64,000 bases of DNA from Microbotryum violaceum (Eukaryota), in contig CDLV01000019.1 in the NCBI GenBank assembly GCA_001244265.2, positions 496,001 through 560,000 of the forward strand, in the 5' to 3' direction. Of this stretch, positions 32,024 to 62,936 are shown in pieces. Positions within the stretch are counted from its first letter, which is position 1; every line of letters starts with the position of its first letter. The translations under genes were made by a program, and so were the position numbers. The notes under the pieces were generated by a model, which was given only the letters and a program-made list of their open reading frames with translations, was not told the origin of the DNA and ran no database searches.

Positions 32024-32606
32024 TCATCTTTGAGTCTTGTCGAAGAAACCATGATCAAACCCACCTGTCCTAGGCAGACCCTTCTGAGCCCTCTGCGGCG
32101 GCGGTGGAGGAGGCACCACGACCGATTTGCCCGCCCTCGCGGCTTTAGGTGGCGCACCTTTGCCCTTCCCTATTCCTCCAACACCCCTCGGAGGACCAGG
32201 TATCATCGACGCATCATTCCCGCTTCCTGACCCGGAACCGGACGGATCTTTAGCCACATTTGAGGATCGAGAGGTCGTAGGTACGGTCGAGGAAGCAACG
32301 TTCATCGCCTGCTTATCCCTCGACTTTGACAACGGCGGCGCCGACGAGACGCGCGTCATCGCCCCACTCGCAATCGCCTGTACCATACTACTCCTACCTC
32401 TCAGCTCCCCTCCTTGCACCATACCCGCGCCTTTACCACCCGCAATCCCACCATCTAAGGTCGCATACCCTTGCAACGAATTCGATTCCCTCATCGCCAA
32501 ATGGCCCGCAAAGACTTGTCCAGGAGTAGCGAGATAACCTTCTGGAATCGCAGCGTCGTCATCTTCTTCTTCGTCGGAACCATCTTCGTCCGAATCATCC
32601 TCATCC

Positions 32607-32637
<31 letters not shown>

Positions 32638-34053
32638 CATCCTCATCGGAAGAAGCGTCCTCCCCATCCGAATCATCCGAGACGTCAATTCGAGAAGGGA
32701 CGGATTTCATCGCCGCAACGGGACGTTTCATCGCCGCAGGAGGCAATGTCGATTTCGAGCCCTTCTGTCCTGGGCCTGGTGGTGCGGGGGGTAAAGTAGG
32801 TCGTTTTGAAGCTGCTGTTGGTCGAGATGGGGGAGCGGCTCGAGCGGTAGTGTTCGCTGATCCTGGAGCGGGTATGAGATCGATGGGTGGGGGAACGATC
32901 CGAGGTGACTCTTTGGCGGCGGATCGCTGCAGCGTGTTGAATGGGGGGGCCGCACCGGGTGAGGACATCAACCCTGTCGACGACGACGACGAGGGTTTGA
33001 TGGGCGAGGATTGAATCGTTCGATCCTGCCCGCTTGTGCTACTACCATTGTTGTTCTTGTTCGGGAGGACGAGCCCCGAAGATACTTTACGCGATGAGTT
33101 GTCGGACAGATAGACGGATCCGAAATCCTCGACTTCGGCCAACTTGGAATGCCCTCGATAGTTGGCGACTCTGTTCGAAGAAGGGAGTGCCGCATTCGCA
33201 CTGACGGTTCGACTCCTTCCCGCACTTGCGTTAGGGGTGTTCAAGCGACCGGTATCGGATCCACTTCCGCTGCCTTTGCCACCCCCACCCCGGTCCGTCC
33301 CAGCGAGCAAATGCTTCGCTCGACTGGCTAGGGAGAGAGGTTTGGTGCCTTCGTCGGAAGAAGAGGAAGAGGAAGCGGTCGAGGCACCGTTGGGGTTGAT
33401 TTTGCGTCGCTTGGTCGTCGTGGGAGCCGAGTTTGAAGCGAGCGGGTGATAAGGTTGGGTTGGGTCGGGGGTGGGGTAAGGGTGGGGCGCGGACGAACGG
33501 TCAAGCGCCAAACGCACCGAACTGTCCAGACGTTCCAGTGAGAAGCTCTGCAGATGCAAAGTATGCTCAACATCCCTTCTCTAAATGAAGGACGCTTACG
33601 TGCTCACCTGCAGCTGCTCATCCCAAACGAGCACACAATCGACATCCTTGGAGTTCTGGACCTGGCCCGTGAACCTCACTTCGCCCGTCCGCTGTTGGCC
33701 CGAACCTCCCTGGGCAGATGAGGTCGATGTTTCGATGGGGAACGCGGCGAGGACGTTCCTTGTTCCGGGGGGTGTAGAGTTCGCGTTTGACGAGGGGTGT
33801 ACCCATAGTAGCCCCGTGGCGGCCGAGCCTAGCGAGACAGGCTTTTGTGTATCTGGCGGGCGTACACATTGTTTATGTTAGGAAAGTAGCCTCTAGCCCA
33901 AATGACCAAACACATGCACTCACACCTGAGCGAGACCAAAGCATCGTCGTCGTGTCTTCTCAGGAACGACGCGCCGAGGTGAATGTCATGCAACGTATCC
34001 GAAGCGACCGTCGCAGTCGTCGACGTCGAACTGGCAGCAGCTGCAGCCGCCAT
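32024..34053 (-). CDS. EAF (ELL-associated factor) domain protein with long low-complexity/acidic tail
   Basis: Spliced N-terminus ...IHLGASFL...LVSLR/Y.TKPVSL...G.L...VRFTGQVQNSKDVDCVLVWDEQLQ/SFSLERLDSSVRL resembles the EAF domain; S/P-rich and poly-D tail. Confidence 0.65.
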
Positions 34054-35954: not shown

Positions 35955-38231
35955 TCAAGCCTTTTTCTGTTCCCGTTTAAAAAAATCGCCCGGTCCAAAG
36001 CCTCTAGGTCCTAAGGCCTCATCAAGGATCGCCATCATCTTAATGACCTTCTCCTCCTCATACTTGGCCGCAATGATTTGCACTCCGACCGGAACGCCCT
36101 CCATTTCCTTGGAGTTATACCGCGCCGCTTTGGGTCCATACAACCTCCCTTCGATCAATTGCGACCCAGGGTCGGTGCGCAGTAGGTCCATAAACTCGGG
36201 CGTCAAGGCATCCTTCTCCGGATCGACGAAGGTCACGGGTAAGACACCCGCCGTCGAATCGACGACGTTCCACAAGAAAGTCGAGACAGCGATCGTCGAG
36301 ATGTCCCACGTCGTTTCACACTTCAACGCCGGTGTCGCTTGAGGAGCGGTCAAGAGACCGTCGAGTCCGTGCGTCTCGAAGAGCTGACGACGGACCTCGT
36401 ACGCGTAAACTTGACGCTCGTGAGCCCACGCTTGAGTCTCGGTGACGGTCCTTCGTCCAAGCGCGCGGATAATACGAGGGAAGACGTGGTCCCCCATGAA
36501 CCTCTCGATACCTCCGGCGACGATATTGCGGAACCATCGAGGGTACTTGAGGGGGGCGTCGAGGAGCCACAGGAAGCCTTCTCTGGGGTCATCGCGCACG
36601 CTGCCGAGCAAGGTCTCGTAATTGCCTGCAGAGGTGAGGGCGATGAAGAGCTCGAGGCCGCGGACGACGTCCGGAGTGGGGATCTCGACGACCTCGTGGC
36701 CCTTCTTGCGGAGAGCATCAATGGACATTTGCAGCGCTCGAGCGCAGGCAGGCGAGTTTCGGACGACGCCGTCTGGGCGACAGGATACACGCTTCATGGC
36801 ATTGGCGAATGGCTCACTCATCGGCACCCGTGCCACCTTGAAAACTCACCGTGCTGGTAGTAGCCAAACTTGAGCTTCTTGGGCATGTCCAACTCGCGCC
36901 AAGGCAAAGGAATCATACCTTCGATCTTGGTGTACTTTGCCGAATGATCGACGAGGCAGCGCATACCAACTTCAAGATCGGCGACACTCCTTCCCATAGG
37001 TCCACACGAGACGGCGATAGTTTCGAAGCCCGGGTTCGCACCGTGGATACCGTGCGTCGGAGTACGACCGATCGTGGGCTTGAGGCCGTAGCAACCCGAA
37101 TAGTGAGCAGGGATACGGAGCGAGCCACCGATGTCGGAGCCGATCCCGAGCGAAGAGGCGTCCGAAGCGAGAAGGGCCGCTTCACCACCGGAGGATCCAC
37201 CAGGGGTGCGAGTCGAGTCGTGAGGGTTCGTGGTTACACCGAACAGCGGGTTCGCGCATTCGAACGAAAGCATCGTCTGGGGAATGTTGGTCTGAGCAGG
37301 AGTTATGGAATTGTGGGGATCAATGGTGGATCGCTGGTGAAGCAGGCGAAAATTCTGTGGCTTACCTTGACGAAAGGATTGGCACCGGCCTCGATGAGAG
37401 CACTGACGAGAGGAGCGTCTTGCTCTGAAAAAACCGAGAGCACCAAAAAGGGCTTCAGCGTTACGTTTCCAAAGACTCGCTCGGCTCGAAAGCGTTTTCA
37501 TACATTCGTCGCAACTCACCCGCTGGAACCCCATGCTTGTAAGTGAACCCAACCGTCGTATCAACTCCCTTGACGTCCAAATGATCTTTGATCGAAATGG
37601 GACACCCATACAACCTTCCCCTTTTCTGCTTGGTCTCGTTGAAATCGTCATCGAGTTGCGATGCTCGGTCCCAAGCGGCCTTGAACATGACCTCGGTTAG
37701 GAGGTTGGATTTGGCATGCGCGCGCAGGGCTTGGGAGATGTAGACGAGGAGTACGGATTTGGCGGACCAGTTTTTGGTGGAGTAAAGTCTGGTCATAACG
37801 AAACAGAGGCAAAGGAGTGAGGACACGTTGCTGCAGACGATCATCTGCTCGGGCGGATGGCCAAACAGGGCTTCGGGCACTGCCCGATTCGGGAAGCTGG
37901 GCACTGGGACCCCAACCCGGCACGAAGCCCCATACTAGTAGGACCGCGAATGGAGCGCAACAACTCACTTCTCTGAAAGCCCCGCAGCACCAACCGACAG
38001 AACTTGACCAACATCTACCCCTTTGAGCAGTTCGGCTTCTTCTTTGAGTAGGTCGCGACCCCATTGTAGTTCCTTGTCACGGAGAGCGCTGCGGAAAGTG
38101 CGCAGGGAAAATGGGGCGCACACGGAGCAGTCATTGGGTCAGATGGAGGGGGCCAACCACGTCATGATGACGGACGAAGAAGGATGGACCTACAGATGGG
38201 CATCACGGTTCACTTCCCAGGCTGCAGTCAT
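35955..38231 (-). CDS. Amidase-signature family enzyme (acetamidase/FAAH-like)
   Basis: LYGCPISIKDHLDVKGVDTTVG, TNIPQTMLSFECANPLFG, PGGSSGGEAALL, GSDIGGSLRIPAHYSGCYGLKPT; start inferred. Confidence 0.93.
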
Positions 38232-38896: not shown

Positions 38897-41800
38897 TTAC
38901 AATCCTTCAGGCCAGGTAAAAAATCCATCCGCACCTTGACTGACGAGCACGCTCGAGAAGAAGTTCGTATCGTTCAAGAATGAATCCAACGGATCCATTG
39001 GATTGAACCCTGTATTACTCGCTCCCGCACTTCCCGCACCTGCAGCACCCCCACCAGCTCCATACGTCTGATGTCCCGCAGGCGTGTGCGTCCCCGACAT
39101 AGTCCCCGATCCACCTGTCGCAACGGCCCCACTTCCGAAGAAGCTCCGATTGTCATGATTCCGTTGTGCGAAAGGTGTAGACATGAAAGGGTACGAAGCG
39201 GAGGGACTCATCGGAGCTCCAGCGAGCGTACCATGCAAACCCAATGCCGAACCGGGCGGTCCTGATGACGACCCATTCGCACCGAACGGATCGGAACTCC
39301 CATCCGCCGCGAGTCCACTGTGGGATAATCGACCTCCGGCTTCGTTCTGGTTCGTTTGCTGCCGGGACATACCGTGCGGATTGGCCGGGTTCTGTTGCGC
39401 CTGTAGCATCGCCTTGAACGAAGCCAGCAAGGCTCGCAACATCGTGCAAGCCGTCGAAGCTGCATGGCGAGGCGAGCACGTCGCGGCTTGACAATCGTAA
39501 ATGGCCTGGACGAGCAATTGCTGCAGTTCGTCGGCGTCGACGAGTTGCGAAAAACGCGTATTGGAGACCTTGACTTTGATCAAGAAGACGGCGCCATAGA
39601 GGATGAGTAAGAAGTTGACGTCAGGGCAATGCAGCAGGACGCCCAGCTCGGCGTATTTATGCGCCAGGTCGAGCACAGATTTGGCGGCAGTGATCGTCGT
39701 CGAGACGCATTCCGGATCGTCAGCAACTTCGCCATTGCGTAGCATGGTGTGTAGGGGGATTGTGTTGAGGAACAATTTCGACGAGAAGAAGTAGAAGAGT
39801 AGGTTGTTCGCGATCGGTTCACCCGCGACGGGGCACCACCGTTGTCGCCAATCGTCCATGCGGTTGTTGAAGATCTTCATCACCGTTGCCGACGGCATCT
39901 CGTCACTCGCCGAAGAAAGACCATAGATGCGATCGCGGAACGTGTCCATGACCTGCCCAATGATCATTTGCAGTTCCTGATGCGCGATGACACCTAGATC
40001 GAAGGGCAGACTCATCGTGTGCAGCGGGATCAGCAGAGGTTTGGCTTCATGGATTTGGTAGGGTCGACCCATCACGGCGGACATGTTGCGATCGATGACG
40101 AAGCCCATCAACCACGTGCGCTCGCGATTGATCGCATCGCGTTGCTCCTCCTCCGACACGTCCTTGAGGTTCGCCCACGGGTTCGCTTGCGACGCGTTGC
40201 GACTCGTCGACAAGTGGTGATCGACGAACGGCGGTGGTCGGAACAGACCCAATTCGAGTCCCATCCGCACGGCCATGCCGAAGTAGAGCCATGCCCGTTG
40301 TGGTCGATCCTCGGCTTCCTTTTTCGGCGCCGAGGTCCACACCGTCAAGATCATCAAAGCCTGCACGGACTCGATGCTGCGCTCGCCGTTGGCGACGGTG
40401 TCGACGAAGCACGCGTGCGCCTCATCGTAGCACTTGACGTGCAGTGTCGGATCGGGATTGAAACGCGAAGCGACGGCACAGATCGCAGTAAAGAGGAACG
40501 GGGATCGCGCACAGACCGAGGTCGCCGAGTTTTGCGCCGGGTCGAGCAAGGGGAGGTGGATGTAGCAAAAGTCGAAGAAGATGCGGAACATGTCGACCGC
40601 CGTTTCGGGAGTGATAATACCTTTGCTCAACAGCGCCGGTGTCCGCGCCTCGTCCCCGCCTTCGGACCCATCGCCCTGGATCGCCTCCGTCATGCGACTC
40701 AGGTTGAAGCCCGGGTCGAGTCCCGTCAGCTTGTTGCGACCGTCGAGCTGAGCCGCGAGACTTGCATCGGCGAGCATCGAAAGCGACGAGCCACCACCGG
40801 CACTGCCCGGTGTCCGACTCGCCGAGGGAAGCAGCCCCGAATCCGTCGATGCAGGGGTATGGGACAACGGCGCGGTCGGGATCCGAGCCGAATTGAGCAC
40901 GCTATTGGGTGACAGGGACATGTTATTGGTCGTAAAGGGGGAATCCGTGCTCGAGGTGCTCTGCGGGTAGTTGCCGCTCGCATGTCGAGGTCGTTTCGCC
41001 GGAGGGATCGAAGCCGAGCCTCCAGCGTGCGAGTCATCGCCGGCAGCGGTCGGGGATTCCATCGTCGTCGATGTTGCTCGGGCGCCATTGTTGATACTTT
41101 TGCCGTTGCGCGAGGTGTCGATGCCGTCGGCAAGCGTTGATTTGAGCTGCTGCAACGCGCTCGGATCGGGTGCACCGCCTGAGTTCATCGACTGTAAGAA
41201 AAGAGACAGATTCTTTTCGACGGATCTGAACTTTTCGGCAAGTGCGGCATCGTGACCACTGCCGTTACCGTTGCTGGTGGTGATGATGGTGGAATGGTCT
41301 GCGCTTCCTCCTACTCCACTGTTGCTACCGAGAGCGTGCTGACTGTTGCCCGCGGAGTTGTCGCTGGCCGAAGTATTGGGTAAGTTGGAAGCCTTGGTAT
41401 TCGGTGTTCCACCCGGAGGTCTGCAGCGGCGAACAGGGAAAATCGAGGTCAGACTCCGGCAGCTCGACGATGTTACGTCACGAGGGCGGGAGCCAGCCTA
41501 AAAGAACGTACTTGGTCGGGCGTTTGCCTCGCTTTGATTCGACAAACACGCATTCGTGGTTACCTGCTCTGCAGCGTTTGCAGGGTGGGTCTTCGGCTCC
41601 ATCACAGCGCGTCTATTTGGCCGTGAGGGCGAGTCATCGCGAGACACCATGGCCGGGACAGGATCGGATTGACGGGGATGCCGAGGGGATGCCGAGGGGA
41701 TGCCGAGGGCGGCGGCAATGGCGAGCGTTCGTTAGCGTCAGGGCCCGCGGGGGGGCAGCGAGATGGCGCGGTGGGGCCAGAACGCAGAGCGCGGCGCGCG

Positions 41801-42561
41801 TGGTCCGAGGCCGTGGGCGGGTCGACGAGCGAGAAGATGTCGGTAAATACGGTTCGAGTGGGGTTTCGGGTGGTGGGCACGGCGCGGAGCGTGAGTGAGG
41901 TTGTTGTTTTCGTATTGTGATAAGGGAAGAGAGAAAGCAGAGCGTGAAAGATGGGAGAATCCGTCAGCTATGAATCCTCTAGGACGGTTTTGGCGACAGT
42001 CGTTGGCAAGCAAGGACCGGGATCGTCCCTGGCCCTGGCCTGCCCCCGCACTCGCGGACATAACGTGAGAGGCGTACCGGCACCGGCAAGCAGTAGCGGG
42101 CTGGCTAGCACTCCCAACGCCGCACGGGGCCACCGCAAACGCCAGATCGCAAGACTAACCTTGAGCTTCCGACAAGCGAGACAAGCCCTGCCCGATCTAG
42201 GAGCGGTCGGATCGGTGGCTTGGGACCCGGTCATGCGGTGCTGCTGCGTCGGCGTGCCCGAACGAGTCCCACCCGCTGTGGAGCCGCCTTGGCCCGCTGG
42301 GCTGTTGCTGTGCTCGTCGTCGGCCTCGTCCAGGTCGTCGTCCAGCACGGACATGGCGTGGTGCGAAGAGGTGTAGTCCCCATTGGGACTGCCGTTGTTG
42401 TTGTAGTAGTGTTGTTGGTTCAAGGCTTGTAGTTGAGTCGCACTGAGGGTTGACGACGACGGTGGCGCACCTGCACCCACAGCGCCGTAAGTGGTCGTCG
42501 TCGACAGCGATGATCTTCCCCCCTCGGAACGACCCATGTACGAAGCAGAAGTCGACGACAT
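38897..42561 (-). CDS. Zn(II)2Cys6 fungal transcription factor (PriB-like) with fungal-specific TF domain
   Basis: RSGRACLACRKLK/TRCDGAEDPPCKRCRAGNHECVFVESKRGKRP; middle homology region (LPLLDP, SPFLFTAICAVASR, AWLYFGMAVRMGLELGL, RERTWL). Confidence 0.92.
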
Positions 42562-42854
42562 GCCGTGGCTTGTAAGAAGTCGGGGTCGACTAGGGTCCGG
42601 TGGGGCTTCAAATGCGTGCAAGTCAAATCTCCGTTCTTAGTCGAGATGTGGGGGCTGGGGAAGGGACTGAGTGAGCGACGCGCAACAACGATCGCTGTGG
42701 TCTTGCCGAGCAGAAGCTAGCGGAAGGGGCAACTAATATTACAAACCATACAGAGGCTGCTCGGGGGCCAACCCTGGCCAACCGTGCCCCGGGTGGGGCT
42801 GTGAATATTCATAGGGCGAAGAGAGAAGTACAGACAAAAAGACACAGAGACACT

Positions 42855-42884
42855 GTAGTAGTAGTAGTAGTAGTAGTAGTAGTA
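42855..42884. repeat. (GTA)10 microsatellite
   Basis: Perfect trinucleotide run. Confidence 0.95.
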
Positions 42885-42934
42885 TGCTTCCGCCACCGGA
42901 TCTGGAAAAGAATAGAGAAAAGGACAAAAATGCC

Positions 42935-44148
42935 CTCGAAAGATAGCGAAATGACGAAGATGCCCTCGCTTCTTTTCATGACTCGGAGGATAGAAATGCC
43001 CATCTCTAAAGGACCAAAATGCCCTCGGATTCTCGACTTCTGTAACACTTGATATTTCAGCTCATAACCACGAGGGTAGCTTCTTGTAGCGTTGTGATCA
43101 GCGCCGTTTACTCAGAATCCCCAGAGATGCCGTGAGAATTCAGTTATCACGGTCGCAAAGGCAGGGGTCCTCATCGATCGTCGACGCGTTGAGGCGCGCG
43201 AGTTCGCGAATCGACGTTGGCCACCTTCCGCATTCTCGCCCCGACATTGAAGTCACCACCGACTTTCGACAATGGAACATTCTATCAGGGAGGGGGAAAG
43301 TCTCTAGAAGGAGCTCACAGATGCGGGCCATCAATCCGCGCTTGATCACCAGTTTCAGCTCGACATTCGCAAGTCTGACAGGCGTCGTGAGCAAGAGTGT
43401 CCAAGATCCTCCGTGCGCCTTCCCTGCGACTGCTATCTCCAAAGGAAAATGCAATGTTTGGACCATCATTGTCTTCAATGAAGCCCACAGTCACCGATCG
43501 CTGCTGCACACCGGCGACAGCAACAGCAGACTTACGCGACACCGCTCCAACCTGTTCCATCTCGAGCTGCAGTGAATGGAAGCTGCATCGTCTTCTTCGT
43601 GAGCGTCATGAGGTCACGGTGAAGTCGACGATAGTGACTCACCTGGTGAAGAAGGGGGTGTCATCATCATTCCGTCACATCTCTCCACGCGTACACGACG
43701 TCCGATCAAGCGCAGGATCCGGGGTGCGGACGAGAGGTCCAAGCGCGACACGATCTGTGGCCTCTGCAAAGGCCCCGGACACAACCGAGTTACATGCGAT
43801 AGATAGATAGACCGTTCGAAGCTGAGCATAAGGTGTCAAGACTGTCAATGCTACTACTGCTGGCCTGTTTCATATGAAATTCACTCGGTCTATACTCATC
43901 GCTCGCTTTCGGTTTGGACTCGCTTCAGTCGCGATAGGGCTCTGACGTTGACTTTGCGACCGTGATAACTGAATTCTCACGGCATCTCTGGGGATTCTGA
44001 GTATACGGCGCTGATCACAACGACTACAAGAGCTACCCTCTTGGTTATGAGCTGATATATCAAGTGTTACAGAAGTCGAGAATCCGAGGGCATTTTGGTC
44101 CTTTAGAAAAGAAGCGAGGGCATTTTCGTCCTTTCGCTGTCTTTCGAG
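42935..44148. mobile_element. Non-autonomous foldback/long-TIR element (Mutator-like inferred), right end apparently truncated
   Basis: Near-identical inverted repeats 42935-43160 and 43952-44148 with iterated GAGGGCATTTT(G/C)GTC sub-repeats; ~790-nt interior without a transposase ORF; no TSD identifiable. Confidence 0.6.
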
Positions 44149-45031
44149 TGTTAGTTGGCGTCCTACATGAGTATGGACTGGATCCGACTTCACCTCAGCC
44201 TGCTCCGAAGGTGTTGGTCGACCGGAGCCTGAACCTTACGTCACGCCCTTCAATCGGTTCAATGCCCCTTTGCACTTTCCTGTCATGTCTCCTGTGAGCA
44301 GTGAGTGACTCATAATGCCAAATCCTACTGTCCCGCTGATCATTCCTTGTGCCTGCTCCTATTCCGCCTCGGCTCGACGTGCACTCGGCAGTTGGCGAAG
44401 GGAGGGTTTTCGCAACAAACCTGCTCACGGAGGGTCGATGCTGTGCAATGTCGTCTAGCGACGTTCAAATGAGACAGAATGCATGGGTATGTAATCATGT
44501 GCACATGTATGCACCAGTATGCACTCGTGTGCAGGGACGACAGAGGTCCGGACAGCAAAGCGATTGCAAGGACCTTCAGTACTGCGTTACGAAGGCGTTG
44601 AGTGAACGCGCCATGGCAGTGCGCCAGAATCTCGCGCAGAGTGCACTGGTATTGAGGTCGATATGATTTACAATGCGTCGCAAACAGAGCTCTCAATACT
44701 GGAGCCTTAGAGATCTGAACCTGAGCGAGCCGAGCGCGGGTTGTCAAAGGCCGATAAGAAAGCTGCGCATCTCCGGGGCAAGGCATGCATCCCTATCATC
44801 CTCTCACAACGGCTCCAGCGTCGAAGAGAACTCGATGCCTCGCTCATAGCAAAGTTTTCCGACGCTGGGCCAGTAGCCATCCATCTTGATTGTTCTTACG
44901 TTCGCGCCATCAAAGAACCCAATGACGACGTCGTCCTCCTGTGCTGCGCTTGAGTTTGTTGGTCGAATCGCAGTCGTGCGCAGCTTCTCCAAGGAAGGCG
45001 CGTGCAGGATGTCTTCCGCTTCTGAGGTGGC

Positions 45032-45968
45032 CACGTTGCGGCCGTCGGAGAGGCGAAAGGAGGCGACGACGAAGCGAGAAAGCAGCTCTTACGACGACTA
45101 TCCGCCTTGATAGCTACTCCGGTCGGAGTGTTTGCTATCGGCTTCACCTTACGGCACAACCGACTCAAGGTCTACCTACTGAACGCGTGTGGTCTGTTCC
45201 ACACCAACGAAGTAATCGTTTCTGAAGAGAACGGCTTTCTCTCGACCCGCTTACCCTCAACCGTACCTTCGAACACGAGCGAGGTTTTTGGTCTTCTTGA
45301 TCATGTCGACGGGTAGTGCTCTTCATGAGCCACTACTTCCCAGGTGCGGGGTCCGAGTTTTGTTGAACGATCGAGAAACGCGGGCCGAAGTGTCTCGTAG
45401 TTGCCTCGGAAGATGACGACGAGCGTAGCAAGACCTTGAAGTTTCTTCTCCTGGACAAAGTTACGAACCTCGGCCAAGTCGATCGCCTGGGTTGAACAGT
45501 CACGCAACACCGACTTGGCCGAGATTCGGAACTTTGCCCAGGAGATGAAATCTCGAGCTCAGCTCATCGCCGTCTTTCGAGGCAAGTACGAGACCCTTCG
45601 CCCCGCGTTCCTCGATCGCGACCATTCTTTCAACAGGCTCGTGCCCCGCGCCCCGGAAGTAGTTATCCACGAAGAGCGCTACAAATCCCTCGACACGATG
45701 GAGAACACCAAAAACCTCGCTCGCGTTCTCGAAGGTGCAATTGAGGTTAATTGAGTCGGGAGAAAGCTATTCTCTTCAGAGCCGACCACTTCGTTGGTGT
45801 TCAACAGACCGCACACGTTCAGAGAGCACACCTTGAGTCGGTCGTGTCGTAAGGTGACGCGATGGCAAACTCTCGGATCGGAGTCGCAAACAGGGCGGAT
45901 GACCGTCGTAGGAGCTGCTTTCTCGCTTCGTCATCGCCTCCTTTCGCCTCGCCAACGGCGGCAACGTG
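45032..45968. repeat. Long imperfect inverted repeat (~450-nt arms, 29-nt loop)
   Basis: 45032-45481 is the reverse complement of 45511-45968 with scattered substitutions and small indels. Confidence 0.95.
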
Positions 45969-46582
45969 TACAAGGGTTCGAATGAGCGCATCGATGTCGG
46001 CCTCCTTCATCTCGCCACCGTCCTTTCCGTTGCCCTTGGCCGTCTCCTTGCCGTCTCCTTGCCCTTGCCCTCCTCGCCCTTTTTATCTTCGTCCTTGGGG
46101 TCCGGTCGAGCATGCTTGGGAAGAGCCCATATGCTTGGAAGAGTTGGGTCGTGCTTGTGGGAAACGCGCTTGAGCAGAACGCGTCGTTTCCGTCGTCTTG
46201 CTGCGGTCGGGGGCAATGCCGATGTAGTTGGGCGAGTTCTTGCACGCAACGAGTCGGTTGTTGCCGGCCTGCGAGGAGCACAGCCCGGCGCAAGTCAGAA
46301 CTTTGTATCATGAACGCGAATGCAGCCAGCCAACTCAACCCTCCTGACTCACGATCTTCTTTTGACGGCTGCTATGGCCTCATTCATCGCCTCCTCGGTG
46401 CCGATCGCGAAGTTTTTGATGCAAACCTTATTTTTTCCCTCCCGCCGAGCGGTCGGGTTTCCGAAGAAATTAATCGTGCAGCCTTTGGCTAAAGTATGCC
46501 TTCCCTTCCATAGTTTTCGAAATCCTGTCGGCCCTCGCAATGGCTCGCTCCCGTGCTAGAAAACATCCTTGCGGAGATCGGC
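45511..46582 (-). pseudogene. Frameshifted gene relic, possibly the REase-like N-terminal region of a FunK1/Pkinase_fungal-type protein
   Basis: HVAAVGEAKGGDDEARKQLLRR...P.R.FA(I)GFTL...L.V..LN.CGL.: E-x-K then QL pattern recalled for the region preceding fungal FunK1 kinases; stops and frameshifts present; family assignment not verified. Confidence 0.4.
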
Positions 46583-46943
46583 GTCGACAATGACGTACGC
46601 GCGCGCGAGGTGGACACTGCGGACGACGCGGGGCCGATCTCCGTTAGGGTGGACCGTGTGGTTCCTGGCAACACGGGAGAGCGAGCTATAGCGAGGGCCG
46701 ACAAAATTGCAAACGCGATGGAAGGGAAGGGTTACTTCAGCCAAGGGCTGTTCGATTATTTCTTCGGCAACCTGACCGCTTGGGAGGTTAAGAACAAGGT
46801 GTGGCCCGAAAACTTCGCGATCGGTACCGAAGAGGCGATGGAGGAGGTCATAGCAGCCGTGAACAAGATTGTGAGTCAGGAGGGCGGAGTCGGTTGGCTG
46901 CATTCGTGTTTCTGGTGAAAAGGTCTGACTTGCGGCGAGCCTG
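46281..46943. repeat. Long imperfect inverted repeat (~300-nt arms, ~50-nt loop)
   Basis: 46281-46582 pairs with 46633-46943; both arms encode NFAIGTEEAM(N/E)E(A/V)IAAV. Confidence 0.92.
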
Positions 46944-47289
46944 AGCAATGAAGATGCCGAGTACAAAAATTTGGGAACGTTAAGGAAAGAGAGAGAGAGA
47001 GAGCCGCGCTAGTGGTGGCCTCGGTTAAACTAAGTCCAAGTCTGAACAGGTCCGAGCGCGAAGTGCGAGCGTGCCCAAGGGTTCTCGATCAGATCGATCA
47101 CCGAACGATCGGAGTTTTTTTTCCATCTCGCATTGATCGATCTTTTCTTGATCTTGTCCAGAAAGATCAAGTTGATCCGAGACATTGATTACACATCTCA
47201 CTAGTTGTCGTATCGGTGTTGAGCGCACTGCATACCACCACCACTGTTGTGCCCACTGCATCATAACCATCCTCCTCATCCTTGTCGGT

Positions 47290-47398
<109 letters not shown>

Positions 47399-48286
47399 GA
47401 AATGCGAACATGATCTTATATTCAGTTCAGACTTTTGTAAAATAGGTCATGTCGGATAGTGGTACATACCCTATAGAACTCTCTTGTGAACGGCAGGTAT
47501 CAATTAAAGGGCCGGCTGCCGCCGTGCGGCCCGTGCCGGTAGATCCCACCGTAGGGCTCGGACACCTAATTCGGATCAGATTGGCGAAACGAATTCGAGC
47601 ATTTTTTTTTTGATAGGGCATGGAAGGTGCTTGGACAGCTTTGCATTTGTGGATCTTTCGTTCCCGGACGGGCCCGGTGCGAGCGGCCAGCGCTCGGGCT
47701 CACTGCACTGCAGTATGAAGCCTTTTTTCTGACTAGGTGTGTGGTAGACACGATGTGAACTTGATGTTCTGAAGAAGACTGATCCAATGAATGTGTGAAA
47801 AGGCAGCCGTTTTCTGACCAACAGAATAGTTACTTATGGAGCAGAGGCGAACGTACATCCCGGAGAGTTATGATTGAATTGAGTTCTGCAGCTGGTCAAG
47901 CTTACACTGCAACTTCGAATACATCTGTTCGGGCAACAATTGAGCTCTCAGGTAGAAGTGGGTCACTTCGGACAGAGATACATTAAACATTGCGAGCAGA
48001 AGCTACTTACTCTCTTTCGAAACGTCAGCGGACCAGCCTCTGCACGACAATCAAGCCCGACGCGCGAGATGGTCCGAGCTTAATACTTTGGCCCTTCGCG
48101 ATTCGTGCGTGCGCCGTCGCCCCGGACGACCAACTCTCCCCCCCAATCCAACCTGAACACCACCACCACCACAATCCGTTTTGTGACAGGGAGCTTTCGA
48201 TCCACGGTTATTGTCATACGTGGTCCACCACTTGACCTCCATCTGTAGTCCCGGGCTTCCGGTTCGACCTTTCTTTCCCGTTTACG

Positions 48287-49356
48287 ATGGTCGCCCCTCG
48301 ACCGTCGACGTCGTTCGTCGCGACCCTCACACGACGAATCATGCCCCAACCCACTACACGACCATTCCATTTCCCATCTCCCACCCCTCACTACCCGACC
48401 ACCTCCCTTGAATTCACGCACCAACGTCGTTCGATCCTCTCCGTCGCAGCGTTCAAGAACCTCCTCTCGCGCCGTCGTCAATCTGAGAATGACGTATCAG
48501 AAGCGCAATCCAACAACTTGGCCAAAAGTTTAGACAAGGAAGTGGCGGTGAAGAGTTCGGCTCCGAAGGGTTTGTTCGATACGGTGGCGGAGGAGGAGGA
48601 AGTCGTTGAGAGCGTTAAAGTGGCCAGAGGGCAGGTTGGTAGGGCGACTTATGTGAGTTGCTGTTGAGCGCTTATTGGTCATGTGTATGTGTGGGGACCA
48701 GGGGGGCAGGATGAGACTGAGGCTAGCTGTATGGTGTACAGCACAAATCGAGTACAGCGAATTTCAAGACGTCGAAACGCAAGCTCAACGACCTCAGTCG
48801 CTTGATTGCCGGACGAGGCGCCGATGAAGCCATTCTGCAACTTCAGGTGCGTGTCCTTCCAAGCCTAGACTAAGAACATCTTCTCGTGCTGATGGTTTGA
48901 AATGTCCCCTCGGCTTGCAGATGTCACCGAAGAAACAAGCGCCGAGGTTGTTGTCCATGTTGGCGCTCGCTAGGGACCATGCGATGGCCAAAGGACTCAG
49001 CCGGGATCAACTCGTCGTTGGTGAGTTGGGTTGAAAATTCTGATCCGAGGCTGCGCAAAAATTTTGAGACCAAACGTCACTGTGATCACCTTGTCCCAGC
49101 GCAATCCTGGACTTCCAAAGGCCCCTCCCTCAAACGCGTCGACATCAAAGGTCGAGGACGTTTCGGCACCAAACACCACAACTCTGCCAAACTACACGTC
49201 TTGCTCGCCGAGGGAATGACGGAGGAAGAAAAGAGGAGACAGAGGAAGAAGGACCAGTGGAGGAAGAGTATCCGGGGGTTGACGGAGGGGGATGCCGGAG
49301 TTGGCAACGGAGGAAGACCGTTGATCAATGTTGGGGTTGGGGATTGGAGGTGGTAG
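48287..49356 (+). CDS. MRPL22: Mitochondrial ribosomal protein uL22m
   Basis: STANFKTSKRKLNDLSRLIAGRGADEAILQLQ/MSPKK...LALARDHAMAKGL...VAQSWTSKGPSLKRVDIKGRGRFG; basic presequence. Confidence 0.88.
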
Positions 49357-58739: not shown

Positions 58740-59991
58740 GGTGGGCGATGTGGGGGGAGCTTGGGAGGCCGTGTGTGGGAGAACGAGGCGAAGAGAGCGG
58801 GGTGGATCCTTAGGCCTTATGAGCTCATGAGCGCCAGGCGGTGTCAAATTATTCCTTAGCTTTCGGTTGCTCTGCTCGGTAATGATGAATTGAATCTCCG
58901 AGAGAGGCAAAATTTCCTCGCGTCAGGGATCATGCACTTTTAGTGGAAGGGTCATCCGAGTCGTGTCAGATTTTCTGGGTAGAGAGAAAGTTTTTTTAAA
59001 TTGGCCCGAGCCGATCAAGGCGTGTGCAGTGTCACCGTGCAGCAGGCGAGGCACTGCAGGGCGAGGCCGACCGAAGTGATCGACGGCAACGATCGACAGC
59101 GCGCCACGACGTGTCTTGTGTGTGTGAGAGAACGGTGGCTTTCGCGGCTGCTTGTGCTGCTGCTGTGTACCACCCCTCTGTCTCGTTTGTGCGTTCGTGC
59201 CCTACCCTGTGGGCTCGGGTATCTGTTTCCGATTTTGTTCTGGGTCAGTCTTTCTGCCCTCGGACAACATGAATGAGCTTAGCAACCAACTTCGGTCGTC
59301 GCACGCGACCAAGCGAGCACGCCGAACTCGTCGTTTGCTGCTGGTGCTGGTGCTGGTGCAGCTGCTGGCATGATTTGATATCTTGCAAGTAGTCACACCC
59401 ACGTTAAAAAATTGTCGCTGATGCCCCTCTTTTCTTCCGACCACAGGCCAGCGGTAGTTTGTAGTCGATCCACAAGCTGCTACAACAACTCGCGTCGCGG
59501 ACTCTGAGCTCGCAAGCCAAGTCAGTCCGGTTCGTGCGAGGACGACTCGAGCGCACGAGTGGGCCACGGCGCACCGCCCTGCACCGCCAGCCAGCGCCAG
59601 CCGAGCTAGCCGAGAGCTGCCCGTGAGGCTGCCCAGAGCTGCCAGCGGTTCGGGTTGGTGATTATTCCATTCCGCACGCGCGCATTCGTCAAGAGTCTGT
59701 CGTCGAGTCCCTCTGGCCTCTGGGACGTACCTCTTCAGGGACACCCCATTCGCCTTCTTGGGTAGGATACCCTGTCCTTCGTCAGTGGTCAGTCCTACTC
59801 CCACCTTTAAAGCATCGCGTGAGGAACTTTCTTCTGGCTCGAAAGCGAAAGTGGGGATTTCGCACTCGAGCCACCGAGCACCCATTCGGCATCAGTCGTG
59901 CCACGCCTGTCGTGTCAAGTCCGACTTCACTCACCCTCTCGACCGTCCGCACCTGATTTTCATCACAGACATTCTCCCACGTCAGACAAAG

Positions 59992-62936
59992 ATGACGACC
60001 CTCTCAAGCGATCCACCACCGATACTAGACGATGACGAGGCACCGCCGCCATCGACTACGCCCTCGTTCTCGTTCTCGTCCTCATCGTCATCGTCGGCTC
60101 CCTCCATCGACCCTGCTGCCTCGTCCCTCTTCACCGCGTCGTCAGCATCTTCATCCTCATCAGGTGGTATCCTCTCCGATTCATCCTCAACACCCTCCCA
60201 CGCCGAGATATTCCAGCTCATCGCATCAGGTTCGATGACCGCCCCCTCAACGAACGACCCGAAGCTGTCCCTCCGACCGCAACACGAACGTATACCCATC
60301 GAACTCGATTCCGCGGCCTACGAACAAGCCGTACGGGACGAAGACGTCGCCACGTCCAAAGACGAACCCCATACATTATCAGAATACAAGGCCTTCGAAG
60401 GACCGGTCAGGAGGCTGTCTATTTTCAGGACACTGTTCGATTCGATCCCTATACCCACTTCTCCGCCGACTTCACCTGTTGCTTCGACGTCGACCTTACC
60501 GGATACTTTCGCGCAGGCTACTACCGCTTCGCCTTCTTCTTCTTCTCCTTCCGCGCCTACAGCACTACAACAGGCTGCTGATCAGCACGCGCACGATCGC
60601 AAGACGTACGCGAGGGAGCTGTGGTGCAAGTGCAATGACGTACCGGCGGGTGCATCCCTCAATACCGCCGTCTCTGCATCGACCGTACCAACGGCACCAC
60701 CGCAAGGTGCAGACACTCCTCTCCGAACAGCGTCTACCTCACCAGAGTCGACCAAAACCCCTCGATCCCAACCTTCGGCCCCCATCGCCTCCGCCGCAGC
60801 GCGTTGGACCGCGTTCGAGAAGTACGCCGAAGAAAAGGAGAAAGAATTGTGGAAGGTGTTTGTCGAATTCGATAGCGATCGGGATATGAAACTGCGCGTT
60901 TCCGAGGTCCGACAGGCGTGCAAGAGGGCCGGGTTGGAGATTATGGATGGGACGTTGGATGATTTCATGAAGACCGTTGATAAGGATGGCGATGGGGCCA
61001 TCTCGTTCGCCGAGTGGAGGAATTTCTTGTTGGTGCGTTCGACAACGTGATTCGGCTAAGAATTCGGATGGGTTTACTAACATTTCTGACTTGGTGGTAT
61101 GGTTTGCAGTTATTGCCGAGACCGACTTCGATGCCAGAGATCATGCACTATTATCAGACGCACCGCAAGCATCGACCGTCGATGAGTCGGCTCACGCAGG
61201 ACGGTAATGGTCAGTTCCTACGCGTCATTGCACAGTACCTTGAAGACGTGAGCTGATCTCGATTTCTACTTTTTTTTTTTTTTTTCTTCATCTCCAGTCG
61301 TCATTGGCGGCGGCAAAACAGGCTGGAACCGACTCATGACCAAATCCGCCGCCGCGTCCAAATCCGCCTCCTTGACCTCGCAACAAAAGAAAGCGATGAA
61401 CTCGTCCGCCGCACTGGCGATCCTTCAAGACGCGACGAATTTAAGAAAGAGGGAGACGGAGAATGATGAGAAGAGGTGGGCGAGGGAATGTGTTGAATGC
61501 TGGGCTAGTAAGGTCGGGTCGGTCAAGAAAGGAAAGGCGGTGGACAATGTGGTCCCGCCCAAGACTGCGGTGTCCAAGAATGTCACGACTTCCAGCTCGT
61601 CGGTTGGAGCTGCGGGTGTCAAGGATGGTGCAGTAGCTTCGCGCGTCGTCGATTTGACTGAGAAAATAACGACCCCCTCGGCGGATGGAGCGGCAACGAT
61701 AATATCGACGACCACGGCCGATGCTGGGTCCGCTAGTTCTGCTCATTCGACGTTATCCGTTATTGAAGACGATGTCGACGAGCAAGCCGACGATCTTCAG
61801 CACGGCATGTTTGCTGGCGCGGGCAAGTTCCTGCTTGCGGGTGGATTAGCCGGAGCTGTTTCCCGCACGGCGACGGCCCCCTTTGATCGCCTCAAGGTCT
61901 ACCTCATCACCTCACCTTCCACATTACAACCTGTTACACCGCGCTACACTCCCAGTCTCGGAAGTCCCGAAGCAGCAGCATCATCACGACCGACGAAGAA
62001 AGTCCGACGAGGCAAGGGAAGCATCCCCGCCGCCGTCCGAGCGATCTGGCGCCAAGGTGGAGGTCTCGCAGCGTTCTGGACGGGCAACGGTCTGAACGTG
62101 ATCAAGATCTTCCCCGAATCGGCGATCAAGTTCCTCTCTTACGAATCCGCCAAGCGCGTCTTTGCGCAATACTGGGACCGCGTCCCTGACCAAACGATGA
62201 TATCCAACTCGAGTCGCTTCGTCTCGGGAGGGATAGGTGGTGTTCTCTCCCAATTCGTTATCTACCCTATCGAGACCCTCAAAACGCGCGTCATGTCCTC
62301 TACGGGAGGTGAACATAAAGGCAATGCCTTGATCTTTGAAACCGCGAAAAACATTTGGAAGAAGGGTGGGGTCAAGTTGTACTTCAGGGGATTACCGGCA
62401 GGGTTGATTGGAGTGTTCCCTTATTCGGCGATTGATATGTCGACGTTCGAAGGGATCAAGTTGGCGTATACCAACTGGGCGGAGGAGGAACCGGGCATTC
62501 CGGGAAGTTTGGCCTTTGGCGCGCTAAGTGGGGGCGTGGGCGCGACGAGTGTTTATCCTTTGTAAGTCCTCACGAGAAGACTTTAATTCGCTGCTAGAGC
62601 CCGCGTTTATGGTAGCTCAATCCCCCCTACGTCACGTTCCGTAGAAACCTAGTCCGTACGCGCCTCCAGGCACAAGGCACGCCCGCCCACCCTCAAACCT
62701 ACACCGGCGTCCGCGACGCCGCTCGTAAATGCTACCAACGTGAAGGCTGGCGAGGGTTTTACAAAGGACTCACCCCGACGTTGGTCAAGGTCGTTCCTGC
62801 AGTCGCGATATCGTATGCGGTTTATGATGCGTCCAAGAAGGTGTTGTTTGGGAGGGAGGAGGGGTATCTTGGTGGTGCGAACTCATCGGCATCTTCCGCT
62901 TCGGCGACTAAGGATGAGGATTGCACGGAGGAGTAG
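59992..62936 (+). CDS. SAL1: Ca2+-binding mitochondrial ATP-Mg/Pi carrier (SAL1/SCaMC-like)
   Basis: EF-hands (DSDRDMKLRVSE, DKDGDGAISFAEWRNFLL) plus carrier repeats (AGAVSRTATAPFDRLK, GNGLNVIKIFPESAIKF, YPIETLKTR, YPLNLVRTRLQAQG). Confidence 0.92.

What the first reader, a model, noticed from the sequence alone, without database searches (positions are those of the whole stretch)
45032..46943. Twin hairpins assembled from diverged paralogous coding fragments: candidate hairpin-RNA (endo-siRNA) locus against a gene family
Seen: two adjacent long inverted repeats with tiny loops (29 nt and ~50 nt). One broken gene copy runs on the minus strand from ~46582 to 45511. Its 3' part is mirrored to the left (45032-45481, +) and its 5' part is mirrored to the right (46633-46943, +). 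Many differences in the first ~20 codons of the first hairpin are synonymous (gcg/gcc, gtc/gtt, gga/ggc, gac/gat, tta/cta) while HVAAVGEAKGGDDEARKQLLRR is kept. Inference: the arms are different paralogs that diverged as coding genes and were later juxtaposed, not a recent fold-back. A read-through transcript would form ~450-bp and ~300-bp dsRNA stems that could feed Dicer and silence the source family, by analogy with Drosophila hpRNAs and plant inverted-duplication loci. I know of no description of this in this lineage. No clear G:U strand bias was visible by eye.
Basis: partly seen in the sequence, partly recalled or inferred. Interest (0 to 1): 0.8.

Follow-up and report, generated by a model that had tools for sequence, protein, structure and literature searches.

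The report
Palindromic relic of a fungal kinase gene
Two real back-to-back inverted repeats in an anther-smut fungus are a scrambled, catalytically dead patchwork of one fungal kinase gene; it could make hairpin RNA, but nothing here shows that it does.

Summary
The two inverted repeats are real: 45032-45968 (29-nt loop) and 46283-46940 (50-nt loop), blastn E = 0 and 5e-117, arms about 82% identical. The window is from a Microbotryum (anther-smut) fungus. All 1.9 kb derives from one FunK1/Pkinase_fungal (PF17667) gene lineage, closest to the 715-aa M. saponariae protein P0002. Five segments alternate in sense and antisense and cover only residues ~75-521. The catalytic half is absent.

Both arms of hairpin 1 carry the same non-native junction (residue ~521 fused head-on to residue 340). 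They therefore descend from one already rearranged unit, not from two intact paralogs brought together. M. silenes-dioicae gene models reproduce the arrangement, so it is old and not an assembly artefact.

The plus-sense member of each pair is better kept (13 vs 36 amino-acid changes; 0 vs 5 frameshifts). This is unexplained.

There is no RIP-like signature and no G:U strand bias. Stems have one perfect run of 21 bp or more. No small-RNA evidence could be obtained. Inverted-repeat small-RNA loci of paralogous genes are already described in the rust Puccinia striiformis. Most likely this is a pseudogene relic; a hairpin-RNA role is possible but untested.

The parts
45032..45247 (+). Hairpin 1, left arm, outer part: plus-sense FunK1 fragment 'M2' (residues 267-340 of P0002, HVAAVGEAK...EENGFLST). 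Reading frame open.
   Evidence: tblastn; family HMM hit 45032-45256, i-E 3.7e-35; open frame 45026-45316
45248..45481 (-). Hairpin 1, left arm, inner part: minus-sense FunK1 fragment 'K1' (residues ~432-521). It has two frameshifts and one in-frame deletion, and is fused at residue ~521 to residue 340 of M2.
   Evidence: HMM hits 45525-45307 (i-E 1.1e-18) and 45313-45272; arm alignment; tblastn minus-strand HSP
45482..45510 (+). Loop of hairpin 1 (29 nt). It reads in plus sense as residues ~421-431 (SIAWVEQSRNT), continuous with the right-arm K1.
45511..45753 (+). Hairpin 1, right arm, inner part: plus-sense K1 (residues 432-520). Open frame with one in-frame 6-nt deletion, ending in TGA at the junction.
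   Evidence: HMM hit 45455-45745, i-E 3e-44
45754..45968 (-). Hairpin 1, right arm, outer part: minus-sense M2 (residues 340-267), with one frameshift.
   Evidence: HMM hits 46067-45858 and 45858-45718
45969..46268 (-). Unpaired middle: minus-sense 'M1' (residues ~160-266), frameshifted.
   Evidence: HMM hits 46271-46182 and 46180-46049; tblastn
46269..46352 (-). Intron 1 of the minus-strand copy (GTGAGT...CAG). Its 5' 70 nt (46283-46352) are the outer end of the hairpin 2 left arm.
   Evidence: Sequence read. P0004 translates this stretch where P0002 reads AAVNKI-TGDNRLVACK.
46353..46582 (-). Hairpin 2, left arm: minus-sense 'N' (residues ~75-157), with two frameshifts and one in-frame insertion.
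   Evidence: HMM hits 46559-46476 and 46483-46358; arm alignment
46583..46632 (.). Loop of hairpin 2 (50 nt).
46633..46870 (+). Hairpin 2, right arm: plus-sense N (residues ~75-157). Open frame, 82% identical to P0002.
   Evidence: tblastn 46658-46873, E 8e-30; HMM hit 46640-46882, i-E 2e-22
46871..46943 (+). First ~70 nt of intron 1 of the plus-sense copy (GTGAGT at 46871). All homology to the family ends here, inside the intron.
   Evidence: no family HMM hit in 46944-47900

Best explanation
The block 45032-46943 is a palindromic patchwork of pieces of one FunK1-type kinase gene, made at the DNA level by inverted duplication (fold-back or template switching). It has since been decaying as a pseudogene relic.

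Shown:
- Five segments alternate in orientation. In P0002 residues they run 267->340 sense, 521->432 antisense, 421->521 sense, 340->75 antisense (with intron 1), and 75->157 sense plus 70 nt of intron 1.
- Nothing of the family lies outside the outer ends of the two palindromes.
- The catalytic loop and C-lobe (residues 522-715) are absent.
- The two arms of hairpin 1 share one non-native junction.
- The arrangement is also present in M. silenes-dioicae.

Inferred:
- A core fragment (K1 sense joined to antisense M2-M1-N) had each end copied back on itself, leaving short spacers of 29 and 50 nt.
- It encodes no kinase.
- A read-through transcript of either strand would fold into two long, roughly 18%-mismatched hairpins. 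An RNAi-competent fungus could dice these as a by-product, but no selected RNA function is needed to explain the structure.

Unexplained: the coding-like pattern of the arm differences.
For: - Organism and family. The left-arm peptide hits M. silenes-dioicae P0001 (98% identity) and M. saponariae P0002 (88%, PF17667). The right-arm peptide hits P0003 (99%), P0004 (80%) and P0002 (82%); these are 3 of the 7 proteins found at E<=1e-3 among 1.84 billion. P0002 matches PF17667 at E 2.8e-30.
- Map. tblastn and a profile of 14 Microbotryum paralogs place all hits with i-E<0.01 inside 45032-46882. Both flanks are empty, with best i-E 1 and 2.1 among 46 fragments each.
- Missing catalytic half. The family profile aligns the K1 end plus the HRD loop to EphA8 kinase 3kul_A. 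The window stops just before HRD.
- Shared junction. The arm alignment runs unbroken across M2(340)|K1(~521) in both arms.
- DNA-level copy. The hairpin 2 arms include intron sequence, and the intron is as diverged as the exon (13 of 70 vs 39 of 210 sites).
- Equal age. Substitutions are 16.5% (M2), 17.9% (K1) and 18.6% (N).
- Ordinary mutation spectrum. Transitions to transversions are 50:28 and 31:25. Transitions at CpG are 17 of 50 and 9 of 31, against about 37% and 31% of C+G sites lying in CpG.
- Not an artefact. M. silenes-dioicae models P0001, P0003 and P0022, all on one 592,635-bp contig, reproduce both hairpins.
- All window copies group with P0002 in one clade, with support 100/99, 100/100 and 94/91.
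Against: - A dead patchwork should diverge neutrally, but the arm differences are codon-aware. Differences by codon position are 35/27/52. NG86 pN/pS is 0.45 against a simulated neutral mean of 0.78, with 0 of 4000 simulations as low. By segment: M2 0.35 and N 0.38 (each 0 of 2000), K1 0.67 (26% of simulations as low).
- Polarised against P0002, the plus-sense member of each pair has fewer amino-acid changes: 4 vs 11, 5 vs 13 and 4 vs 12, in total 13 vs 36 over 204 columns (p 0.0014).
- All 5 frameshifting indels lie in minus-sense pieces (read).
- Minus-sense copies have end branches of 0.24-0.47. The plus-sense copies measure 0.09-0.14 from the same node.
- So at least one member of each pair behaved like coding sequence for part of its history. 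The simple relic model does not predict this.
- The order of rearrangement events is inferred, not shown.
Confidence: 0.55

Rival explanations
1. Eroded cluster of three alternately oriented gene copies (plus, minus, plus). At least the outer two worked as genes for some time. Deletions then trimmed them to fragments, and a repair event primed from the inverted M2 homology copied K1 across the junction. On this reading the M2 and N arm pairs really are different gene copies that diverged as coding sequence. They would have been neighbours from the start rather than juxtaposed later.
For: - pN/pS is low for M2 (0.35) and N (0.38) but near neutral for K1 (0.67 against a null of 0.79).
- The minus-sense copies carry three times as many amino-acid changes and all the frameshifts.
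- Trees do not resolve the arms as sisters to the exclusion of P0002 for N and K1.
- At two adjacent residues the plus-sense N shares 'AN' with P0002, while the minus-sense N shares 'S' with P0004 and the outgroups.
Against: - It needs at least three independent deletions that left no family debris outside the palindromes, plus a copying event to explain the identical junction.
- The hairpin 2 arms meet at residue ~75 with only 50 nt between them, which leaves no room for two promoters and N-termini.
- The intron is no more diverged than the exons: 13 of 70 vs 39 of 210 sites.
- The M2 tree weakly joins the two arms (90/84).
Confidence: 0.2
2. One reading: a selected hairpin-RNA (endo-siRNA) locus. 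A read-through transcript folds into two long stems, Dicer cuts them, and the siRNAs silence FunK1 relatives.
For: - The predicted stems are far more stable than shuffles (z -29 and -35).
- RNAi genes are present and expressed in M. lychnidis-dioicae (passages of PMC4469406).
- The structure is kept in a sister species.
- Precedent exists in the same subphylum. In Puccinia striiformis, 14 of 33 gene-associated small-RNA loci are long inverted repeats, some of them paralogous gene pairs, and FunK1 is among the predicted targets (passages of PMC4578785).
- On a minus-strand transcript, the three better-kept pieces are exactly the ones antisense to kinase mRNA.
Against: - No RNA data of any kind could be examined.
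- The longest perfect runs are 21 bp (hairpin 1, the only run of 19 bp or more) and 16 bp (hairpin 2).
- There is no G:U vs A:C bias (44 vs 37 in total), so there is no sign of selection for pairing on one strand.
- The conservation is codon-aware rather than pairing-aware.
- No other FunK1 sequence lies in the window.
- The closest full-length proteins found in M. silenes-dioicae are 54-55% identical to P0002, and the M. lychnidis-dioicae hits cover only 35-37% of it. Targets with 20-nt matches are therefore doubtful.
Confidence: 0.12
3. The plus-strand open frames are real small genes, as annotated in M. silenes-dioicae (g08604 = M2 + K1 with the antisense stretch spliced out; g08602 = N). 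They would encode kinase-fragment proteins under purifying selection.
For: - All three plus-sense pieces are open, while every minus-sense piece is frameshifted.
- Amino-acid changes are 13 vs 36.
- M2 and K1 lie in the same plus-strand frame, 77 codons apart against 80 in P0002.
- A GT...AG interval, 45316-45440, is used by the P0001 model.
Against: - The products would lack the catalytic loop and C-lobe and would hold antisense-derived filler.
- P0001 and P0003 match no Pfam family at E<=1.
- The left-arm M2 has lost the invariant Arg298 and the nearly invariant Ile297 and Glu299 of the family (PIRE -> PVGV).
- If each pair is asymmetric for any reason, all three favouring one strand happens by chance 1 time in 4.
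- No matching M. lychnidis-dioicae gene model turned up.
Confidence: 0.1
4. Assembly artefact, for example a chimeric palindromic read.
For: Palindromes with short spacers are a known artefact of long-read libraries (recalled, not tested).
Against: - Artefactual palindromes are near-perfect, whereas these arms differ at about 18% of sites and by several indels.
- Three gene models of a different species' assembly reproduce both hairpins.
Confidence: 0.02

Closest known systems
Inverted-repeat-associated small-RNA loci of Puccinia striiformis (pst-sir-9, pst-sir-110; Mueth et al. 2015, PMC4578785; passages read)
   Same: The fungi share a subphylum (Pucciniomycotina). Both have long inverted repeats made of homologous gene sequence. 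The authors propose read-through giving a long hairpin that yields small RNAs against one or both genes, and FunK1 kinases are among their predicted small-RNA targets.
   Different: There, mapped 18-22-nt reads and ESTs exist, the arms are near-perfectly complementary, and the partners are whole expressed genes lying tail to tail. Here the arms are about 82% identical gene fragments with 29- and 50-nt loops, and no RNA evidence exists.
Drosophila hairpin-RNA (hpRNA) loci and their target gene families (mechanism recalled; PMC10292708 and bioRxiv 10.1101/2021.08.05.454923 seen only as search listings with the first lines of their abstracts)
   Same: Both are inverted duplications derived from a protein-coding gene family that could give a Dicer substrate against the parent family.
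   Different: In Drosophila the biogenesis, the targets and the phenotypes are shown, and the arms are highly complementary. None of this is shown here.
Endo-siRNAs from inverted-duplicated pseudogenes (mouse oocytes, recalled; rice pseudogene small RNAs, PMC2708354, listing only) and plant proto-miRNA genes born by inverted duplication of their targets (recalled)
   Same: All involve a dead gene copy folded back on itself as a possible double-stranded RNA source.
   Different: Those cases rest on sequenced small RNAs. Here only the DNA architecture is known.
Short-spacer palindromes and inverted duplications made by fold-back priming or replication template switching (MMBIR/FoSTeS-type events; recalled general knowledge)
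   Same: The arms abut with spacers of tens of bases. Segments are copied back and forth along one roughly 1.4-kb template. A junction joins two distant points in opposite orientation with 2-4 nt of possible overlap.
   Different: The event itself cannot be observed. Divergence of about 18% hides any microhomology at the centres.
RIP-like hypermutation of repeats in Microbotryum (passage of PMC4469406; the TCG target is recalled)
   Same: Duplicated DNA in this genus is a known substrate for it.
   Different: It was tested and not seen. Transitions are not enriched at CpG (17 of 50 and 9 of 31), TCG accounts for 7 of the 26 CpG transitions, and 45-50 CpG remain per hairpin 1 arm.

Membership tests
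FunK1 / Pkinase_fungal (PF17667) gene family | Sequence homology to family members | tested here: met
   The arms hit P0002 (PF17667) at 82-88% identity. A profile of 14 Microbotryum members hits every segment, i-E 3e-44 to 8e-3. The fragments alone give no Pfam hit (0 of 7 ORFs at E<=1).
FunK1 / Pkinase_fungal (PF17667) gene family | Intact kinase core with catalytic loop (HRD) and C-lobe | tested here: not met
   No segment goes beyond residue ~521, and the HRD loop starts at ~528. No family hit lies anywhere else in the window or in the flanks. These are fragments and pseudogenes, not a working member.
Hairpin-RNA / endo-siRNA locus | Long inverted repeat able to fold as one RNA | tested here: met
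   MFE is -654.4 and -461.9 kcal/mol; 0 of 20 shuffles fold as well in either case. The stems are imperfect.
Hairpin-RNA / endo-siRNA locus | A single transcript spanning both arms | not testable with these tools
   No RNA-seq data and no eukaryotic promoter tool were available.
Hairpin-RNA / endo-siRNA locus | Dicer-dependent 20-24-nt RNAs from the arms, not the loops | not testable with these tools
   No small-RNA data were available. The literature search for Microbotryum with 'small RNA'/'siRNA' listed 6 papers holding all three terms, none of them on Microbotryum (Microbotryum occurs 1-7 times in each; listing only).
Hairpin-RNA / endo-siRNA locus | A target gene elsewhere with near-perfect complementarity | tested here: inconclusive
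   No other FunK1 sequence is in the window. At the protein level, the nearest full-length relatives in M. silenes-dioicae are 54-55% identical to P0002. One further fragment, P0004, is 80% identical. No genome DNA was available.
Hairpin-RNA / endo-siRNA locus | Selection for pairing (G:U-tolerant strand bias or compensatory change) | tested here: not met
   G:U-type vs A:C-type mismatches on the plus strand are 24 vs 26 and 20 vs 11. The conservation follows codon position instead.
RIP-like mutated duplicate | Excess of C-to-T transitions in CpG/TCG context and CpG depletion | tested here: not met
   17 of 50 and 9 of 31 transitions at CpG; no TCG preference; broad spectrum.
Transposon with terminal inverted repeats / foldback element | Inverted repeats at the element ends, and the same element repeated elsewhere | tested here: inconclusive
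   The arms are host-gene fragments and each repeat pair is internal to the block. There is no second copy in the 64 kb. Genome-wide copy number could not be checked.
Fold-back / template-switch inverted duplication | Adjacent inverted copies with a short spacer that share pre-existing rearrangement junctions and include non-coding DNA | tested here: met
   Spacers are 29 and 50 nt. The junction is identical in both arms of hairpin 1. Intron sequence lies inside the hairpin 2 arms.

The most novel reading that the evidence does not exclude
The locus is a working hairpin-RNA gene read from the MINUS strand. On that transcript the three well-kept pieces (45032-45247, 45511-45753, 46633-46870) are the ones antisense to FunK1 mRNA. 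Their coding-like conservation would arise because the guide-side arms are kept matched to a functional FunK1 relative, by selection or by gene conversion from it, while the passenger arms drift. That would make it a fungal counterpart of the Drosophila hpRNA-target arms races. It would be aimed at a kinase family that shows recent amplification in this genus (clusters of 7-9 near-identical members).
Probability: 0.08. Interest if true: 0.7.

Novelty: new member of a known kind. Interest (0 to 1): 0.35.

Why it matters
If it is only a relic, it is a clean, dated example of how fold-back duplication scrambles a gene. It is also a warning for annotation. Three gene models in a sister species appear to be read off pseudogene debris.

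If the hairpins are diced, it would be the first such locus noted in Microbotryum. It would extend the inverted-repeat small-RNA loci seen in rust fungi to a second order of Pucciniomycotina, with a defined gene family as the source.

The codon-aware, one-sided conservation inside a structure that cannot encode a kinase is the one observation that deserves follow-up. It implies translation of the fragments, repeated conversion from a working paralog, or tracking of a target.

Tried and rejected
- Pfam on 7 arm ORFs: 0 families at E<=1. The family came from sequence searches instead.
- RIP-like hypermutation as the cause of the arm divergence: rejected.
- Strand-specific mutation as the cause of the one-sided decay: not supported. 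G:U vs A:C mismatches are 44 vs 37, and the spectrum of polarised changes is broad.
- Kinase debris in the left flank. By eye and by permissive tblastn I saw weak matches: residues 603-620 at 44618-44562 (E 0.27), residues 528-548 at 44879-44941 (E 0.36), and BLASTP E 0.019. A short AALEFVG match was not found by BLASTP. The family profile finds nothing there (best i-E 1), so I dropped them.
- Homology of P0002's first 85 residues to the window, to test whether M. saponariae has the same upstream palindrome: only noise, best E 0.2.
- Rfam at E<=0.1 over 42000-48500: one sub-threshold match, mir-2363 at 45456-45536 (-), 39.9 bits against a gathering score of 90. It sits on the tip of hairpin 1 and I take it as a generic hairpin match.
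- Trees of the three segments (13-16 rows, 72-80 columns): within the P0002 clade the order of the arms and P0002 is unresolved for N and K1. Rows left out: P0004 from the M2 and K1 sets, P0019 from the N set, and any row filling under 70% of the columns.
- Literature searches: 'Microbotryum' + 'FunK1' gave 0 papers. 'Microbotryum' + 'inverted repeat' gave 44 papers, of which 12 were listed; none of the 12 titles concerns hairpin RNA or a palindromic pseudogene (listing only).
- Not used because it holds no fungal DNA: genome contigs. No nucleotide sequence of any relative could therefore be compared.
- Supplementary files of PMC4469406 and PMC4578785 were not seen. They may hold expression or small-RNA tables bearing on this locus or its analogues.
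Full report
**Is it there?**

Yes. The repeat finder on 44000-48000 returns 8 inverted pairs. They tile two palindromes, one with arms meeting across 29 nt (45482-45510) and one across about 50 nt (46583-46632). blastn of the region against the whole window gives two self-reverse matches: 45032-45968 (77.2% over 965 columns, E 0) and 46283-46940 (73.8% over 686 columns, E 5e-117). A self-search of all 64 kb finds only three inverted matches at E<1e-8 and no direct ones. The third is 42935-43163 / 43949-44148. Global alignment of the arms gives 78 substitutions in 442 aligned bases plus five indel events for hairpin 1, and 56 in 306 for hairpin 2. As RNA, either region folds into one long stem: -654.4 and -461.9 kcal/mol, z -29 and -35, with 0 of 20 shuffles as good. 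This follows directly from the repeats.

**What is it made of?**

The window is fungal (Fungal_trans domain).
- The left-arm peptide hits M. silenes-dioicae BQ5605_C018g08604 (P0001, 98% identity) and a 715-aa M. saponariae protein with PF17667 (P0002, 88%).
- The right-arm peptide, scored against 1.84 billion representatives, finds 7 proteins at E<=1e-3. The top hits are P0003 (BQ5605_C018g08602, 99%), P0004 (80%) and P0002 (82%).
- P0002 matches Pkinase_fungal at E 2.8e-30.

tblastn with P0002 and a profile built from 14 Microbotryum paralogs give the same map on the plus strand:
- residues 267-340 in sense (45032-45247)
- residues ~521-432 in antisense (45248-45481)
- the loop and residues 421-520 in sense (45482-45753)
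- residues 340-75 in antisense, including an 84-nt intron (45754-46582)
- the second loop
- residues 75-157 in sense plus the first ~70 nt of the same intron (46633-46943)

The intron is identified because P0004 translates through it where P0002 reads AAVNKI-TGDNRLVACK, and because GTGAGT sits at 46871. The profile finds nothing in 44150-45031 or 46944-47900 (best i-E 1 and 2.1) and nothing credible elsewhere in the window. Family DNA therefore ends exactly at the outer ends of the two palindromes. Residues 522-715 are missing. The profile-to-PDB alignment shows that these contain the HRD catalytic loop (3kul_A, E 0.0013).

The minus-strand copy is collinear only down to 45754. What follows (45745-45455) is plus-sense coding sequence, and its minus-sense twin is in the left arm. 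Each arm of hairpin 1 is thus residue 340 of one piece fused head-on to residue ~521 of another. The arm alignment runs unbroken through that junction in both arms, at the same nucleotide, with 2-4 nt of possible overlap. No intact family member has this junction. The two arms therefore descend from a single, already rearranged and hence non-functional unit. They are not two intact paralogs brought together later.

**Age and reality**

Three M. silenes-dioicae gene models on one 592,635-bp contig reproduce the arrangement:
- P0001 reads M2, part of the antisense stretch and K1.
- P0003 reads the antisense of N, the loop, N and the intron stub.
- P0022 equals the window's minus-strand frame.

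With protein identities of 98-99% between the species but about 18% divergence between the arms, the palindromes predate that split. They cannot be an assembly artefact.

**How did the arms diverge?**

- There is no RIP-like process. Transitions to transversions are 50:28 and 31:25. Transitions at CpG are 17 of 50 and 9 of 31, in line with the share of C+G sites in CpG. TCG accounts for 7 of those 26.
- There is no pairing-driven bias. Plus-strand G:U-type against A:C-type mismatches are 24 vs 26 and 20 vs 11.
Differences by codon position are 35/27/52. NG86 pN/pS is 0.45 overall (M2 0.35, K1 0.67, N 0.38). A simulation with the observed substitution spectrum gives a mean of 0.78, and 0 of 4000 runs are as low. 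For K1 alone, 26% of runs are as low.
- Against this, the intron part is exactly as diverged as the exon part: 13 of 70 against 39 of 210 sites.
- Polarising amino-acid changes with P0002 shows a one-sided pattern. The plus-sense members changed at 4, 5 and 4 columns and the minus-sense members at 11, 13 and 12, over 204 columns in all (binomial p 0.0014).
- All five frameshifting indels are in minus-sense pieces (read).
- The minus-sense end branches are 0.24-0.47, against 0.09-0.14 for the plus-sense copies.
- The changes on the decaying copies show no single mutation type.
- One caution applies. If each pair is lopsided for any reason, all three favouring one strand has a 1-in-4 chance. Without assuming a direction, Fisher's combination of the three binomial tests gives about p 0.03 (my arithmetic).

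**What this means**

The structure (shared junction, intron inside the arms, family DNA confined to the block, equal divergence of all three pairs) points to DNA-level fold-back or template-switch duplication of a gene fragment. The result is a pseudogene relic.

The coding-like divergence does not fit a relic that was dead from birth, and I could not resolve it. Three explanations remain open:
- The block is what is left of three alternately oriented copies, some of which worked for a while.
- The plus-strand frames are translated.
- One member of each pair has been refreshed from, or kept matched to, a working paralog.

Deciding among them needs nucleotide sequences of relatives, which no available collection holds.

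**The hairpin-RNA proposal**

In its favour:
- M. lychnidis-dioicae has one Dicer, two Argonautes and one RdRP, all expressed (passages of PMC4469406).
- In the rust Puccinia striiformis, 14 of 33 gene-associated small-RNA loci are long inverted repeats, including pairs of homologous genes. The authors propose read-through hairpins, and FunK1 kinases are among the predicted targets (passages of PMC4578785).

Against a selected role:
- The stems are poor. The longest perfect runs are 21 bp (the only one of 19 bp or more in hairpin 1) and 16 bp.
- There is no strand bias.
- There is no target in the window.
- The closest full-length proteins found in M. silenes-dioicae are only 54-55% identical to P0002. 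One more fragment, P0004, exists.

Transcription and small RNAs could not be examined. The searches 'Microbotryum' with 'FunK1' (0 papers), with 'small RNA'/'siRNA' and with 'inverted repeat' (44 papers, 12 listed) turned up no study of such a locus in this genus.

**Verdict**

The best reading is an old palindromic patchwork of a dead FunK1 gene (confidence 0.55). It might incidentally feed RNAi. A selected hairpin-RNA function is possible (about 0.1) and easily tested with small-RNA data. Novelty: a new member of a known kind. The interest is moderate and rests mainly on the unexplained one-sided, codon-aware conservation.

Noticed in passing
window 42935-43163 and 43949-44148: A third inverted repeat lies 0.9 kb to the left of the kinase block. 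Arms are about 215-230 nt (93% complementary over 159 nt; 83% over 230) with a 785-nt spacer and short sub-repeats in the arms. An ORF in the spacer (43612-43806, +) has a CxxCxxxGHxxxxC-like motif but no Pfam support (best zf-C2H2_10, E 0.13). It is possibly a non-autonomous element with long terminal inverted repeats. All three long inverted repeats of the 64 kb lie within 4 kb.
   Followed up: partly
window 47290-47397; 42855-42884; 32556-32680: There is a perfect (ATC)36 microsatellite just right of the block and a (GTA)10 to its left. A similar CAT run lies at 32556-32680.
   Followed up: no
window 45026-45316, 45440-45754, 46514-46918 (+); 45819-46082 (-): The sister species' annotation carries three gene models (P0001, P0003, P0022) that appear to be read off this pseudogene patchwork, partly through antisense-derived sequence. 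P0001 and P0003 match no Pfam family.
   Followed up: partly
window 45455-45481 versus 45511-45537: The plus-strand reading of the inner end of the left arm (TKLRTSAKS) resembles the native residues just upstream of the loop in P0002 (TTVKTHAMS, 4 of 9). This may be chance, or a hint that the intact gene holds a short inverted repeat that seeded the fold-back. It cannot be tested without the DNA of an intact copy.
   Followed up: no
proteins P0010, P0013, P0014 (other Microbotryum FunK1 genes, not in the window): Clusters at 90% identity hold 7-9 member sequences each, so another branch of this kinase family has recently multiplied in M. silenes-dioicae and M. saponariae.
   Followed up: no
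window 35955-36845 and 36818-37696 (-): An amidase (PF01425) is split over two overlapping open frames, by an intron or a frameshift.
   Followed up: no
window 59662-61050 and 61252-62565 (+); 38897-41497 (-): An EF-hand frame is followed by a mitochondrial-carrier frame, probably one calcium-binding carrier gene with an intron. A Fungal_trans transcription factor lies upstream of the gene-poor interval that holds the palindromes.
   Followed up: no
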